Of a stretch of DNA of 26,515 nucleotides, positions 302 to 5,002 are shown piece by piece. Below the pieces are notes generated by a model. That model was not told the origin of the DNA. It did not search any database and saw only the letters and a program-made list of their open reading frames with translations. How positions within the stretch are numbered: position 1 is the first letter of the stretch; each line of letters begins with the position of its first letter. The translations under genes and the position numbers were made by a program. Source of the DNA: Candidatus Woesearchaeota archaeon (lineage in GTDB: Archaea; Nanobdellota; Nanobdellia; Pacearchaeales; GW2011-AR1); contig CAYUGD010000002.1 in assembly GCA_964444275.1 (NCBI GenBank), forward strand, positions 1-26,515. Reading direction: 5' to 3'.

Positions 302-1096
302 TTAGTAACTTCGCCACAAAACCAGTTTCCCTTTTTCATCTCTCAAAAACAAAGTGTCTCCTGCGCGGGTCCAAACATAATCTTCGCCGCTCCAATACAA
401 AGATGAATCTGTGTCAGTTCCATTGCCTACAATTATTCTAACCTGCTTTTTTGGTTCAATCTGAAAATTCTGAAAAGCATATTTTTTTCTTCCTTCATCT
501 TTAATCTGCCAGCCACTCATGTCACAAATGAAAGAACATCTGTTGTAAAAAATAACTTCTTGATTTTTATAATCTAATTTTTTTAATTCAATACAGCCTG
601 CGCATTTGTCAGTTGATTTTTCGCAGATTCCAATATTTTTTTCAATACATTCTTCCCAAGCTTTTCTTAGAATTCCTTCGTTCTTCTTGTCGTCAAGTAT
701 ATAGACATTTGCAAATCCGTTTTTTACAAGTTCAACATTAACATTCTCTTTTCCAAAATGTAAAAATGCAAGAAGCCGCCCGTATTTATCATACTTTTCA
801 GCAGAACATTCAAGATTTATGGTTTTGTTAAGAACTTTATCTTCTAAGAATTTTTTTGCTTCATCAAAATAAAACTCGCCGCGTTCAGGCGCATTAATTC
901 CGAGCAGACGAACACTCTCTCCCGAATCAATGACAATTGTATCTCCATCGATAACTCTCTCGACAAAAGCAGTTTCATAGTCCAGCAAAAAATTTTCAAC
1001 AGTCCTGTCAAGAAAAGAGTAATTAATCACAAAAAGAGCTAACACAAGAAGAACGAGAATTATTATGTCTTTTCTCTTTTCCTTTGCTCCGCCCAT
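302..1096 (-). CDS. Membrane-anchored thermonuclease (SNase family) with C-terminal lamin-tail-like domain
   Basis: N-terminal hydrophobic anchor. SNase motifs VERVIDGDTI, VRLLGINAPE and DKYGRLLA. The C-terminal part (MSGWQIKDEG...GDTLFLRDEKGKLV) resembles an LTD. Confidence 0.85.
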   Translation of the reverse strand: MGGAKEKRKDIIILVLLVLALFVINYSFLDRTVENFLLDYETAFVERVIDGDTIVIDSGESVRLLGINAPERGEFYFDEAKKFLEDKVLNKTINLECSAEKYDKYGRLLAFLHFGKENVNVELVKNGFANVYILDDKKNEGILRKAWEECIEKNIGICEKSTDKCAGCIELKKLDYKNQEVIFYNRCSFICDMSGWQIKDEGRKKYAFQNFQIEPKKQVRIIVGNGTDTDSSLYWSGEDYVWTRAGDTLFLRDEKGKLVLWRSY

Positions 1097-2909: not shown

Positions 2910-4604
2910 TTAAAATTTAATTCCTGCACCTACACCTATTTGATGAACTCTGTTAGTTTTCTCGCTGGCTCCTGTTCTATCTTTCCTATCGAAAGGAGCG
3001 TGATAACCTTCTTCTGTGGTGAATCCTGTTTTGATGAGGAACCTGTGCAGGTTAAGCATTGCTTCAATTTCAAATTTATCATATTCAACATTTAATTCAT
3101 CGTCTATAATTGAGGCGTTATTACCTAAAGGAACATAAACCCTGTTTCCTCTTTCACCTATGAATCTCAAAGAAACTGCACCATTATGGTAACCTAATCC
3201 AACTCTAATTGCATTTCCACTGACCATTGTTCTGATTATATCCTCCTGCTTAGCTATAAGGTCTGTTCCCTGGAATGTTTCTGAATCAAATTTTAAAGAA
3301 GCGTTTCCTTTTGAAAACTTGTATAACACTTCAGCTAAAAAATCTCCTGCATTAATTTTTCCGCCCAAACCAAGCCACTTTATCATTTCCCTGAATTCTC
3401 CTTGGGTGTTGCTTCTTAGGTTCATTAATTCATTTGAAATGGTTTCATTATCTAAAGAAACACGGCCTTCTAAACCAACGCCGCCTGCCGGACTTATACT
3501 GGCCCCTTCAAAATTAATAACGCGCGGAGTGTAAATGAAACTTCCTTCTATTTCTTTTGTTTTATTTGTATAACCATCATCATCATTTAAAAATCTTAAA
3601 TCAAATTCTGCTTTTGAGTTAGGACCGCTAAGAAAAGCGTCAAGTTCTAGACCCCCTCTTGCAGCTTTGAACCCAACAGGTTTTCCGCTTGGATTTGTCG
3701 ATTTAGCATAATTGTCAATCACTGCGCCGAGAGTTGAACCAAAATGCACGTTATGAAAAGCATCCCAGTTGTTTCTTTTTTTTGTTTTGCTGTCTGTTAT
3801 TATGTTTGGAGTTTCTTTTTCCCAATCAATCTCGTCTCCATATTCAATCTCTTCCCATTCAATTTCATCTTCATTGCTGCTTTCTTCTTTGGAATATTCT
3901 GATTCTGAACTAATGTCTGTTACATCCTTTCCATATTCTCTTCTGACTCTCCAGTAAACTTTTTCTGATTCAGGTGTTAGCTCTTTTCTTTTAATTTCAT
4001 ATTCTGCCTTTTTTATTTCTCCTGAATTGTCTGCTTTAATGTCTAGGATAATTGGAACACCATTTTTTTTACGTCCCCCTATGCTTTCACTTTTTGCAAC
4101 GATAAAATATCTCCCTAGTTCTATGTGACCGAGACTCTCTTTTTGGACGTCAAGAACTCCATCTTTAACAGCTTTTTCAAGTTTGTTCAATGAAGCCCTT
4201 TCATTATGAGGAGTTTTTTTCAAAAGAGATTGGTAATATCTTATTGTTGCTATTCTTTCTTTTTTTGACTGGGAATCTCTAGAGCTAAGATCCTTTTTTA
4301 AATAAGATATAATGCTTTTAAGTCCTTTTCTTGCATCAATGACATCATAACTAATATCTCCTCTTTTTGCGTAAAGCCCAAATTTATCATTCAAATTAAT
4401 TTTTGAATCAGAATCTAGATCAAGATTAAAAACAAAATCTTTTAGTCCTACCCCCTCTCCAGCAGTTGAAAGTTCAGAATTACTCGAATAAATCCTGTTT
4501 TGATTTACTTCCTGTGCGAACAAATTATTAGGGGCTCCAAAATAAAGTGCAGTTCCAATTTCAAAAGCACTTACTAAATCTCTAAGTGATGGTCGCCATT
4601 TCAT
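2910..4604 (-). CDS. Hypothetical exported protein with EF-hand/dockerin-like loop and beta-barrel-like C-terminal half
   Basis: Signal-like N-terminus ending NNLFA-Q. DLDSDSKINLND Ca-loop-like motif and an acidic linker. C-terminal ~280 aa are Gly/aromatic-rich alternating strands ending HQIGVGAGIKF. Confidence 0.6.
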   Translation of the reverse strand: MKWRPSLRDLVSAFEIGTALYFGAPNNLFAQEVNQNRIYSSNSELSTAGEGVGLKDFVFNLDLDSDSKINLNDKFGLYAKRGDISYDVIDARKGLKSIISYLKKDLSSRDSQSKKERIATIRYYQSLLKKTPHNERASLNKLEKAVKDGVLDVQKESLGHIELGRYFIVAKSESIGGRKKNGVPIILDIKADNSGEIKKAEYEIKRKELTPESEKVYWRVRREYGKDVTDISSESEYSKEESSNEDEIEWEEIEYGDEIDWEKETPNIITDSKTKKRNNWDAFHNVHFGSTLGAVIDNYAKSTNPSGKPVGFKAARGGLELDAFLSGPNSKAEFDLRFLNDDDGYTNKTKEIEGSFIYTPRVINFEGASISPAGGVGLEGRVSLDNETISNELMNLRSNTQGEFREMIKWLGLGGKINAGDFLAEVLYKFSKGNASLKFDSETFQGTDLIAKQEDIIRTMVSGNAIRVGLGYHNGAVSLRFIGERGNRVYVPLGNNASIIDDELNVEYDKFEIEAMLNLHRFLIKTGFTTEEGYHAPFDRKDRTGASEKTNRVHQIGVGAGIKF

Positions 4605-4753
4605 GTAATTTTGAAGAAAACCGCGGTTTATAAAGATTTATATATTTTATCACTTAGGAATTAATACAATAATGTTGTCTTTTTAGAGTTATATTCTTTT
4701 GGGATTTAATAAATACAAATTAGTTTAGAAAATTAATTTTTGAGAATATAAGT

Positions 4754-4809
4754 GTAGGAGGAAAAAAACACCGAAGTGTTCTACATTAACCGAAGTTAAC
4801 GCCTCCTAC
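4754..4809 (-). ncRNA. Candidate 56-nt structured small RNA (three-way junction, two cUUCGg tetraloops)
   Basis: GUAGGAGG/CCUCCUAC 8-bp closing stem encloses CGUUAAC-UUCG-GUUAAUG and AACAC-UUCG-GUGUU. A BRE/TATA-like GAAAAGTTTATAAA (4845-4832) lies 23 nt upstream. Confidence 0.5.
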
Positions 4810-4831
4810 TTTTTTGTTTAGGACTTTATGG

Positions 4832-4845
4832 TTTATAAACTTTTC
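4832..4845 (-). promoter_or_regulatory. BRE-TATA promoter upstream of the candidate small RNA
   Basis: Minus strand GAAAAG-TTTATAAA, closely resembling the tRNA promoters GAAAAC-TTTATAAG (14632-14619) and GAAACT-TTTATAAC (14457-14444). Confidence 0.55.
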
Positions 4846-4872
4846 TTTTTGTTTTTTGGCTATAAAATAAGA

Positions 4873-5002
4873 TGAGGGGGACAGGATTCGAACCTGCGTA
4901 AGGGACTAACCCACTGGATTTCTAACATAATGTTTGAAACATAGAGAATCTTCGATTCTCCTGTCTTAAGTCCAGCCCGTTTGACCACTCCGGCACCCCC
5001 TC
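4873..5002 (-). tRNA. tRNA-Leu(UAA) with 45-nt intron at 37/38 (4964-4920)
   Basis: Acceptor GAGGGGG/CCCCCUC plus A73. Anticodon arm CUGGA-CUUAAG/A-UCCAG. Long variable arm, T arm GCAGG-UUCGAAU-CCUGU, relaxed BHB. CCA not encoded. Confidence 0.92.

What the first reader, a model, noticed from the sequence alone, without database searches (positions are those of the whole stretch)
4753..4845. Promoter-backed 56-nt RNA with two cUUCGg tetraloops
Seen, on the minus strand: GUAGGAGG CGUUAAC-UUCG-GUUAAUG UAG AACAC-UUCG-GUGUU UUUUU CCUCCUAC. This gives an 8-bp closing stem, a 7-bp stem whose G-U pair works only on this strand, and a 5-bp stem. Both loops are the extra-stable cUUCGg. A tRNA-like BRE/TATA ends 23 nt before the first G, and this GC island sits in otherwise AT-rich DNA. 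An alternative UGUAG/CUACA pairing competes with the closing stem. An AGGAGG SD-like sequence is sequestered, with AUG-UAG inside. I could not assign it to a known RNA family. Inference: an independently transcribed, possibly switchable, small RNA.
Basis: partly seen in the sequence, partly recalled or inferred. Interest (0 to 1): 0.65.

Follow-up and report, generated by a model that had tools for sequence, protein, structure and literature searches.

The report
New small structured RNA gene, Pacearchaeota
This is most likely the gene for a 56-70 nt Y-shaped RNA with its own promoter, belonging to an uncatalogued RNA family kept in about 40 genera of tiny-genome DPANN archaea; comparative evidence supports it strongly, but no RNA data exist and its function is unknown.

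Summary
Window 4809-4754 (minus strand) folds into an 8-bp closing stem and two cUUCGg-capped hairpins (-21.7 kcal/mol, z -4.7). A BRE/TATA box ends 22 nt before the first G.

The element is single-copy in its genome and matches no Rfam family. It belongs to a family I found in 52 of 401 genomes (39 of 191 genera) of one archaeal family.
- In 31 aligned members, 97.9% of pair cells are standard pairs and 15 of 21 pairs show compensatory changes.
- 77 G-U cells make the fold specific to the promoter's strand.
- The best TATA match ends 21-22 nt before G1 in 27 of 31 loci.
- Three genomes hold two copies in tandem; in the two inspected, each copy has its own promoter.

The ancestral position lies between tRNA-Leu(UAA) and a membrane-anchored SNase-LTD nuclease gene.

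It is not a tRNA terminator, a REP/MITE, a riboswitch, a C/D or H/ACA RNA, a mini-5S or a coding sequence. The proposed UGUAG/CUACA switch and the SD/AUG-UAG features are not conserved.

I found no RNA-seq data that cover it. The function is unknown. My best guess is a stable trans-acting, protein-binding RNA recognised through its invariant GUAGG/CCUAC end helix. In three loci it is also the only possible promoter and leader of the nuclease gene.

The parts
4832..4846 (-). Archaeal promoter of the small RNA: purine-rich BRE-like AGAAAAG (4846-4840) plus TATA box TTTATAAA (4839-4832). It ends 22 nt before the first base of the RNA.
   Evidence: Read from the sequence. The best TATA 8-mer ends 21-22 nt before G1 in 27 of 31 homologous loci, and a TATA-like box is visible at that position in the other four. 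Fifteen further members look the same.
4754..4809 (-). Core of the small RNA (56 nt). P1 is 4809-4802 paired with 4761-4754 (GUAGGAGG/CCUCCUAC). Hairpin 1 is 4801-4784 (7 bp, cUUCGg). Hairpin 2 is 4782-4765 (5-7 bp, cUUCGg). The junction linkers are short and U-rich.
   Evidence: Fold z = -4.68. RNAalifold on 11 sequences shows compensatory changes in 7 of 21 pairs. In 31 sequences 97.9% of cells pair, 15 of 21 pairs are compensatory and 0 of 500 shuffles reach this. Only the sense strand keeps the pairs. No Rfam family matches.
4762..4768 (-). T7 tract between hairpin 2 and the 3' strand of P1. It is peculiar to this copy and a few others, and it could end some transcripts before P1 is complete.
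   Evidence: The internal T run is 7 here, 6 in two relatives, 5 in four others, and 2-4 in the remaining 24 members. That archaeal RNA polymerase terminates at oligo-T is established knowledge. The effect on this copy is inference.
4743..4753 (-). Conserved 3' tail ACUUAUAUUCU after P1. It is the T-rich region where transcription probably ends.
   Evidence: The tail motif AC(U/C)NAUAUUCU, or ACU followed by a T4-T8 run, occurs in most members. A T run of 4 or more lies within 25 nt after P1 in 24 of 31 loci, and of 5 or more in 13 of 31. The 3' end itself was not mapped.
4873..5002 (-). tRNA-Leu(UAA) gene with a 45-nt intron at 37/38. It is the conserved upstream neighbour of the small RNA gene.
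   Evidence: Rfam tRNA, 47.1 bits. ARAGORN with introns allowed also finds it. tRNA-Leu(UAA) lies within 1.5 kb in 26 of 31 loci, on the opposite strand in 5 of those, and in 12 of 15 further loci.
2910..4604 (-). Next gene downstream (564 aa, no Pfam domain). It has its own TATA box (TTTATAAA, 4634-4627) 22 nt before the ATG, so it is not led by the small RNA.
302..1096 (-). Membrane-anchored SNase + lamin-tail-domain nuclease gene. In most other genera it lies directly after the small RNA gene. Here two surface-protein genes separate them.
   Evidence: Pfam SNase 4.1e-15 and LTD 1.2e-10. Orthologues lie downstream on the same strand in 20 of 31 loci and in 7 of 15 further loci.

Best explanation
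Window 4846-4743 (minus strand) is a small RNA gene of a previously uncatalogued family.

Transcription starts at G4809, 22 nt after a BRE/TATA promoter, and most likely ends in the T-rich tail just after the closing stem. The product would be about 56-70 nt.

The RNA folds into a compact, very stable three-way junction. The closing helix begins with an invariant GUAGG/CCUAC. The two arms (three in some genera) are capped by cUUCGg tetraloops and vary freely in sequence, length and number while they keep pairing.

The only sequence-constrained parts are the end helix and the first tail nucleotides (R-C-pyrimidines). The junction strands are short and U-rich. I therefore infer that the RNA works in trans as a stable protein-binding or decoy RNA recognised through its paired 5'/3' end, with the hairpins as structural ballast.

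The gene sits in an old neighbourhood: tRNA-Leu(UAA), then this RNA, then the SNase-LTD surface nuclease, then the SRP RNA. In three loci its promoter is the only one available for the nuclease gene. There the RNA also acts as a 5' leader with a leaky oligo-U terminator.

Shown: the fold, covariation, strand specificity, promoter geometry, copy number, distribution and gene neighbourhood. Inferred: the transcription start and end, stability, a protein partner, and action in trans. The confidence given (0.7) is for 'independently transcribed small structured RNA gene of a new family'; the specific end-helix protein-binding mechanism alone I would put at about 0.25.
For: **Fold**
- z = -4.68 on the minus strand only.

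**Homologues and distribution**
- BLAST homology begins exactly at G4809 in seven relatives whose upstream DNA is unrelated.
- The element is in 13 of 42 genomes of the genus, one copy each.
- It is in 32 of 301 genomes of the order, all in one family.
- It is in 52 of 401 genomes and 39 of 191 genera of that family.

**Covariation**
- 97.9% of 625 pair cells are standard pairs, and 15 of 21 pairs show compensatory changes.
- 0 of 500 shuffles reach this, and slid controls give 42-52% paired.
- 77 G-U cells lower pairing on the antisense strand to 85.8%.

**Promoter**
- The best TATA match ends 21-22 nt before G1 in 27 of 31 loci.
- Fifteen more loci look the same.

**Independence from neighbouring genes**
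- tRNA-Leu is on the opposite strand in 5 loci and absent from 5.
- The downstream neighbour is convergent in 4 loci.
- In this window the next gene has its own TATA 22 nt before its ATG.
- Three genomes hold two copies in tandem.
- In the two I inspected each copy has its own promoter. The older pair has diverged promoters, and its hairpin 2 differs between copies while still pairing.

**Termination and family membership**
- T-rich tails follow P1 in most members.
- No Rfam hit falls on the element in the window or in 20 diverse loci, even at E <= 5-10.
Against: - No transcript evidence exists. No public RNA run covers the element, and the RNA runs found hold only tRNA-Leu of other organisms.
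- The gene is missing from about 70% of the genomes of its own genus and from about 87% of the family sample. In some of these the nuclease gene abuts tRNA-Leu directly. The RNA is therefore dispensable.
- This copy carries an internal T7 tract (4768-4762) right after hairpin 2. That tract could terminate many transcripts before the 3' strand of P1 is made.
- No partner protein or target was identified. The end-helix-binding idea rests only on the conservation pattern. GUAGG could partly reflect a preference for the initially transcribed sequence, because the SRP RNA of the genus starts GUAGAC and its RNase P RNA starts GUAAGU.
- In three loci (L052, L056, L059) the nuclease ATG lies 7-24 nt after P1 with no room for a promoter of its own. 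This fits a cis-acting leader as well as it fits a trans-acting RNA.
- The covariation alignment was fitted to the model, which favours the structure somewhat.
Confidence: 0.7

Rival explanations
1. The element is a cis-acting 5' leader or attenuator of the surface-nuclease gene or operon. The promoter drives a transcript whose structured start, followed by an oligo-U tract, stops most polymerases. The fraction that reads through becomes the SNase-LTD mRNA. The short RNA would be a by-product.
For: - The SNase-LTD gene lies downstream on the same strand in 20 of 31 and 7 of 15 loci.
- In L059, L056 and L052 the ATG lies 7, 22 and 24 nt after P1, with no room for a TATA box, so the element's promoter must serve the gene.
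- In some genomes without the element the same gene starts 4-9 nt after tRNA-Leu. This gene is therefore habitually fed by read-through from an upstream stable-RNA gene.
Against: - In most loci the nuclease has its own TATA-like box 18-24 nt before the ATG. I read this by eye in L013, L040, L041, L064, L065, L067 and L069 and in L226.
- The spacing from P1 to the ATG ranges from 7 nt to more than 1 kb.
- In 4 loci the next gene is convergent, and in the G000 lineage two genes with their own promoters intervene.
- Tandem copies keep separate promoters.
- No alternative, mutually exclusive structure is conserved.
Confidence: 0.14
2. The element is a processing ('punctuation') signal that stands in for a tRNA. 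Its end helix plus an unpaired purine mimics an acceptor stem plus discriminator. tRNase Z or another endonuclease would cut after it and release a nearly leaderless nuclease mRNA, as presumably happens after tRNA-Leu in genomes that lack the element.
For: - The arrangements correspond: tRNA-Leu...CA-UUUU-AUG in element-negative genomes and P1-ACUUUUU-AUG in L059.
- The first base after P1 is always a purine (A or G), followed by C in all but one member.
- From my own knowledge, not checked here: tRNase Z has been reported to cut after a tRNA-like element upstream of 5S rRNA in Haloferax volcanii, and plant mitochondria are reported to use tRNA-like 't-elements'.
Against: - The topology is the mirror image of a tRNA. 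The hairpin continuous with P1 is on the 5' strand, and 3-5 unpaired nt separate hairpin 2 from the 3' strand.
- The loops are 4 nt, with no T-loop.
- Rfam's tRNA model does not match.
- Most members are not followed directly by an ORF.
- The RNA has its own promoter, which a pure processing signal does not need.
Confidence: 0.05
3. The element is merely the terminator or 3' trailer structure of the upstream tRNA-Leu gene.
For: It lies 63 nt after tRNA-Leu on the same strand. Hairpin 2 followed by U7 looks like an intrinsic terminator.
Against: - A BRE/TATA box sits between the tRNA and the element at a fixed 21-22 nt from G1 in nearly all loci.
- tRNA-Leu is on the opposite strand in 5 of 31 loci and absent from 5.
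- The T7 tract is not conserved.
- The tRNA has its own T-rich trailer.
Confidence: 0.03
4. The element is a dispersed hairpin repeat (REP/MITE-like) or a chance palindrome.
For: Hairpins with the AACUUCGGUU core occur in other RNA-like loci of this genome (C4 end) and of related genomes.
Against: - There is one copy per genome, plus three local tandem duplications.
- ACTTCGGT is not over-represented in the genome: 6 found against 8 expected.
- The position is conserved and syntenic.
Confidence: 0.01

Closest known systems
Stand-alone archaeal small non-coding RNA genes with their own promoter, as described from RNA-seq of Nanoarchaeum, Pyrobaculum, Haloferax and Methanosarcina (general knowledge)
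   Same: A small RNA gene with a BRE/TATA promoter and an oligo-T end, lying among tRNA and SRP RNA genes, structured and conserved within a lineage.
   Different: It has no C/D or H/ACA boxes and no obvious antisense seed. The family is in neither Rfam 15 nor the papers I could search.
Y RNAs and other RNAs recognised through a conserved helix formed by their 5' and 3' ends (an analogy from my own knowledge)
   Same: The conserved part is the terminal helix made of the two ends plus a U-rich 3' tail. The interior varies in sequence, length and number of hairpins.
   Different: There is no bulged-C Ro-binding helix and no tRNA-like module, I did not look for a Ro/Rsr gene, and the RNA is much smaller. 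This is a functional analogy only, not membership.
Other small Y-shaped, UUCG-capped RNA genes reported by this scan in Pacearchaeota (notes e1-4563001, e1-5114845, e1-905473)
   Same: Promoter-backed Y-shaped RNAs with cUUCGg loops next to a tRNA-Leu gene in the same group of archaea, and likewise of unknown function. One note describes tandem ~57-nt copies, as I saw in three genomes.
   Different: Two of those RNAs are about 90-93 nt, and all three lie between 5S rRNA and a tRNA-Leu. No 5S gene is near any of my 31 loci. This RNA has a perfect closing stem and no bulge-helix-bulge. I could not compare the sequences, so whether they are one family is open.
Type III toxin-antitoxin loci (ToxIN): promoter, structured RNA, leaky terminator, then a nuclease gene
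   Same: The gene order promoter, small structured RNA, U-tract, nuclease ORF is seen in several genera.
   Different: The RNA is a single unit, not a repeat array. The nuclease is a membrane-anchored, presumably extracellular SNase-LTD, not a ToxN-type endoribonuclease. Many genomes keep the nuclease without the RNA.

Membership tests
Any Rfam 15 family | A covariance-model match at or near the gathering score | tested here: not met
   Nothing matches the element in the window at gathering score. At E <= 10 only chance hits appear, 13-16 bits against cut-offs of 68-249. Nothing matches the element in 20 diverse homologous loci at E <= 5.
tRNA / tRNA-like | Cloverleaf with a 7-nt anticodon loop and a T-loop, with the acceptor stem stacked on the T arm through the 3' strand | tested here: not met
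   The RF00005 model hits the neighbouring tRNA-Leu but not the element. The loops are 4-nt UUCG. The hairpin continuous with P1 is on the 5' strand.
C/D box sRNA | C box RUGAUGA and D box CUGA near the ends, forming a k-turn, with guide regions between | tested here: not met
   The element contains no CUGA, and a UGAUGA occurs in only one homologue. The ends form a perfect Watson-Crick helix.
H/ACA sRNA | A single hairpin with a large internal pseudouridylation pocket, a k-turn or k-loop in the upper stem, and an ANA box directly 3' of the lower stem | tested here: not met
   The interior is two or three separately covarying hairpins, not a pocket. The tail after P1 is ACU, ACC or GCU in most members, and only two begin with an A-N-A triplet.
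Riboswitch (purine-type three-way junction, or guanidine-II mini-ykkC tandem hairpins) | Invariant junction or loop nucleotides that form a ligand pocket, plus an expression platform coupled to a constant downstream gene | tested here: not met
   The junction strands are 0, 1-3 and 1-5 nt long, U-rich and variable. The loops are UUCG, or GCAA once, not ACGR. The distance to the next gene ranges from 7 nt to more than 1 kb, and the next gene is sometimes convergent.
Small self-cleaving ribozyme (hammerhead) | A three-way junction with a conserved CUGAUGA...GAAA core | tested here: not met
   The core motifs are absent from the junction, and no Rfam ribozyme model matches.
BHB-processed or circularised archaeal RNA | A bulge-helix-bulge motif formed by the sequences flanking the RNA | tested here: not met
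   P1 is an uninterrupted 8-bp helix in this copy. The promoter places the start at its first base, so there is no 5' flank to form a BHB.
tRNA gene terminator / 3' trailer | No promoter of its own, always downstream of the tRNA and co-oriented with it | tested here: not met
   A TATA box lies at a fixed distance. The tRNA is on the opposite strand or absent in 10 of 31 loci.
REP / MITE-type repeat | Many dispersed copies per genome | tested here: not met
   One copy in the window's own genome. One per genome in relatives, or a local tandem pair in three.
Reduced or trans-encoded piece of a universal RNA (5S rRNA, SRP RNA helix 6, RNase P RNA) | The universal RNA or the piece is missing from the genomes that carry the element, and the element is present wherever the piece is missing | tested here: not met
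   - A normal 5S rRNA is in this genome and in 35 of 41 genomes of the genus.
- The two SRP RNAs I aligned lack helix 6, and all 32 SRP RNA hits in the genus are about 260 nt long. No genome of the genus has an SRP19 hit. Only 13 of 42 genomes carry the element.
- RNase P RNA co-occurs with the element in six genomes.
Small ORF / leader peptide | A conserved start codon and reading frame | tested here: not met
   The AUG is replaced by UUG, GUG or AUA, and the linker indels are not multiples of three.

The most novel reading that the evidence does not exclude
The RNA is one half of an expression module for the cell-surface nuclease of these nucleotide-scavenging archaea. A strongly transcribed stable RNA would meter read-through into the SNase-LTD gene through its leaky oligo-U terminator. 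Its end helix would then be cut, as a tRNA 3' end is, to release a nearly leaderless mRNA. It would be functionally interchangeable with tRNA-Leu, which occupies the same place (tRNA-UUUU-AUG) in some genomes that lack it. That would be tRNA-style 'punctuation' used to make a translatable leaderless mRNA in an archaeon, with a dedicated non-tRNA punctuation RNA.
Probability: 0.1. Interest if true: 0.7.

Novelty: new variant of a known kind. Interest (0 to 1): 0.5.

Why it matters
DPANN archaea have some of the smallest cellular genomes, so a non-coding gene kept with its promoter, fold and position across about 40 genera is likely to do something useful. Almost nothing is known about RNA biology in these uncultured organisms.

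The family gives a well-defined target for metatranscriptomics and for pull-downs in the few DPANN co-cultures: 46-77 nt, an invariant GUAGG/CCUAC end helix and UUCG-capped arms. It can also be submitted to Rfam, which would improve annotation of several hundred MAGs.

Its tie to the surface nuclease gene touches on how transcripts are made translatable in a largely leaderless genome, as does the finding that this gene starts a few bases after a tRNA in relatives. The practical value is limited until a function or partner is found.

Tried and rejected
**Identities tested and rejected**
- Mini-5S rRNA: rejected, because normal 5S genes are present.
- SRP RNA helix 6 supplied in trans: rejected. 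The two SRP RNAs aligned lack helix 6 and all 32 hits are about 260 nt. No genome of the genus has an SRP19 hit. Only 13 of 42 genomes carry the element.
- RNase P fragment or replacement:
  - RNase P RNA went undetected in 6 of 12 element-positive genomes and in 3 of 29 element-negative ones.
  - It co-occurs with the element in six genomes.
  - The MAGs are incomplete and the RNA is divergent in this subclade.
  - I treated this as unrelated.
- Hammerhead, C/D, H/ACA, riboswitch, BHB/circular RNA, coding ORF, REP/MITE and tRNA terminator: see the membership tests.

- The switch through UGUAG/CUACA is not conserved.
- The tail ACUUAUAUUCU as an antisense seed: the genome holds only AT-rich chance matches, plus one 45 nt downstream of the element itself. 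The 16S and 23S genes are not in this MAG, so rRNA targets could not be checked.

**Searches that led nowhere**
- A pattern scan of genome contigs was too loose.
- RNA-seq: no run holds the window's element. Runs found with a relative's locus hold only the conserved tRNA-Leu.
- Literature search on DPANN, non-coding RNA and tetraloop: nothing relevant.
- The earlier-notes index has no look-alike sequence from any other window.

Full report
**1. The observation**

On the minus strand, 4809-4754 reads GUAGGAGGCGUUAACUUCGGUUAAUGUAGAACACUUCGGUGUUUUUUUCCUCCUAC.
- an 8-bp closing helix P1;
- a 7-bp hairpin and a 5-7-bp hairpin, both closed by cUUCGg;
- -21.7 kcal/mol against -10.05 +/- 2.49 for dinucleotide shuffles (z = -4.68, 0 of 200 shuffles as good).

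The opposite strand folds worse and differently. A TATA box TTTATAAA (4839-4832) with a purine-rich BRE-like stretch ends 22 nt before G4809.

An intron-containing tRNA-Leu(UAA) lies upstream on the same strand at 5002-4873. The next gene downstream (4604-2910) has its own TATA 22 nt before its ATG.

**2. The element is neither chance nor a repeat**

The window belongs to a 364-kb, 51-contig genome that is 82% complete. The element occurs once in it.

BLAST against relatives found three full-length matches. It also found seven matches that begin exactly at G4809 although the upstream DNA is unrelated.

| Search | Model | Genomes with a match |
|---|---|---|
| Genus | R1 (11 sequences) | 13 of 42, one copy each |
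| Order | R1 | 32 of 301, all in the window's own family |
| Family | R2 (31 sequences) | 52 of 401, in 39 of 191 genera |

Three genomes carry two copies in tandem.

**3. Structure support**

On the 31-member alignment:
- 97.9% of 625 pair cells are standard pairs.
- 15 of 21 pairs show changes on both sides.
- None of 500 column shuffles reaches any of the five measures.
- Sliding the partners by 1-3 columns drops pairing to 42-52%.

The alignment was fitted to the model, which favours the structure somewhat. A plain MAFFT alignment of 11 sequences already gave compensatory changes in 7 of 21 pairs.

The alignment holds 77 G-U cells. Read on the other strand, pairing falls to 85.8%. The helices are therefore RNA helices on the promoter's strand.

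Across genera:
- The arms change in sequence and length.
- Two members have three hairpins and one has a long second arm.
- Loops are UUCG, or GCAA once.
- The junction strands are short and U-rich.
- Invariant or nearly so: G1, U2, A3, G4, G5 with their partners CCUAC, the ACUUCGGU core of hairpin 1, and a purine followed by C just after P1.

**4. Evidence for an independent transcription unit**

*Promoter geometry.* The best TATA match ends 21-22 nt before G1 in 27 of 31 loci. A TATA-like box is visible at that position in the other four. Fifteen additional members show the same. The window's own leaderless gene at 4604 has the same spacing (22 nt).

*Termination.* After P1, most members have a T-rich tract. 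A run of T4 or more lies within 25 nt in 24 of 31 loci, and T5 or more in 13 of 31. Several genera share the tail AC(U/C)NAUAUUCU.

*Independence from neighbours.*
- The element occurs with tRNA-Leu on the opposite strand (5 loci) or with no tRNA-Leu within 1.5 kb (5 loci).
- The next gene is convergent in 4 loci.
- The tandem copies in G365 have different promoter flanks, and their hairpin 2 differs while still pairing. The copies in G467 are a recent 217-bp duplication.

*Missing evidence.* No RNA run holds the element. Runs found through a relative hold only conserved tRNA-Leu sequence.

**5. Neighbourhood**

The ancestral order is tRNA-Leu(UAA), then the element, then a membrane-anchored SNase + lamin-tail-domain nuclease, then further genes, then the SRP RNA.
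- tRNA-Leu(UAA) lies within 1.5 kb in 26 of 31 and 12 of 15 loci.
- The nuclease lies downstream on the same strand in 20 of 31 and 7 of 15 loci.
- The SRP RNA lies 0.5-4.5 kb further on in many genomes.

In this window two surface-protein genes sit between the element and the nuclease gene at 1096-302. They are a 564-aa protein without a Pfam domain and a He_PIG Ig-repeat protein.

In most genera the nuclease has its own TATA-like box 18-24 nt before the ATG. In L226 and L064 this box overlaps the RNA's oligo-T. In L059, L056 and L052 the ATG is only 7, 22 and 24 nt after P1, so the RNA's promoter is the only one available.

I inspected 20 genomes that the model had scored negative. Where a tRNA-Leu(UAA) locus was recovered, nothing resembling the element follows the tRNA. 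In four genomes of the genus the next ORF starts 4-9 nt after tRNA-Leu. One of these ORFs is confirmed as SNase by Pfam, and the others look the same by their N-termini.

The RNA is thus dispensable. The nuclease gene is repeatedly placed to receive read-through from a stable-RNA gene.

**6. What it is not**

- No Rfam family matches.
- It is not a tRNA, C/D RNA, H/ACA RNA, hammerhead, riboswitch, BHB substrate, terminator-only element, REP/MITE or ORF. The membership table gives the details.
- It is not a reduced universal RNA:
  - 5S rRNA is present.
  - RNase P RNA co-occurs with it in six genomes.
  - The SRP RNAs of the genus are short and lack helix 6 where aligned, with no SRP19 hit in any genome, whether or not the element is present.

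**7. Most likely mechanism**

The shown facts point to a small, very stable RNA made from its own promoter. Selection acts on three things: the paired 5'/3' end (GUAGG/CCUAC plus R-C), the mere existence of stable arms, and a U-rich end. That pattern is typical of RNAs bound by a protein at the terminal helix, with the interior serving as a scaffold.

I therefore favour a trans-acting protein-binding or decoy RNA. I put about 0.7 on 'independent small RNA gene'. I put much less, about 0.25, on the specific end-helix-protein idea.

A secondary, lineage-dependent role as promoter donor and leaky terminator for the nuclease gene is directly suggested by three loci. The main rival, a pure cis leader or attenuator, fits those loci but not the majority.

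This copy has one peculiarity: a T7 tract directly after hairpin 2. It may truncate part of the transcripts (inference).

**8. Novelty and interest**

The family is absent from Rfam 15. It resembles in kind, but not demonstrably in sequence, other small UUCG-capped RNAs that this scan has flagged in Pacearchaeota.

It is a solid new RNA family of unknown function in a poorly known group. That makes it useful for annotation and a good target for experiments, but it is not yet a mechanistic surprise.

Archaeal identity is supported by:
- the BRE/TATA promoters;
- the tRNA intron at 37/38;
- the Archaea_SRP and RNaseP_arch matches in the genus.

Noticed in passing
L047:1501-1764 and L038:2089-2351 (SRP RNA of relatives G017 and G009); whole genus: The SRP RNA of this genus is only about 263 nt long, and both copies I aligned lack helix 6 (a 40-position deletion in the Archaea_SRP model). 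No SRP19 gene (PF01922) was found in any of 41 genomes, although three archaeal control genomes scored. The archaeal SRP here seems to have lost SRP19 and its main binding helix together.
   Followed up: partly
L078, L084, L085, L074 (relatives G020, G002, G024, G032), just after tRNA-Leu(UAA): In these four genomes without the small RNA, the next ORF starts 4-9 nt after the 3' end of tRNA-Leu (...CA-TTTT-ATG), with no room for a promoter. It is confirmed as the SNase nuclease gene in L078 and looks the same by N-terminus in the others. This suggests a tRNA-mRNA co-transcript in which tRNA 3' processing would create a nearly leaderless mRNA.
   Followed up: partly
Own genome contig C40:20-99, minus strand (outside the window): A second promoter-backed small RNA candidate of about 80 nt. 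AAAGTTTAAAAAT lies 23 nt before GAGAGGGGUGG..., the RNA is a long hairpin holding two CUUCGG motifs, and it ends in T6. It folds at -26.5 kcal/mol. It was not compared with other genomes or with Rfam.
   Followed up: no
Own genome contig C4, last ~75 bases, minus strand (outside the window): The 3' end of another structured RNA is cut by the contig end. It has two AACUUCGGUU-type hairpins followed by T5, and lies just upstream of a translation initiation factor (aIF5B-like) gene that has its own TATA box.
   Followed up: no
Genus-wide; own genome: RNase P RNA was not detected in this genome or in 5 of the 11 other element-positive genomes sampled. It was weak (46.8 bits) in the close relative G026. 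Among element-negative genomes it was missing from only 3 of 29. This could reflect divergence or loss in this subclade.
   Followed up: partly
window 4687-4697 against 4743-4753, minus strand: AGAAUAUAACU, 45 nt downstream of the RNA's tail, is nearly complementary to the tail ACUUAUAUUCU. The two could form an AU-rich stem if transcription reads through. Conservation appears weak in G027.
   Followed up: no
L072, L073, L070 (relatives G254, G288, G295): These are arrays of three to six UUCG-capped hairpins (TAACTTCGGTTA, TTGACTTCGGTCAA and similar). They scored weakly with the model and seem to belong to longer, different structured RNAs.
   Followed up: no
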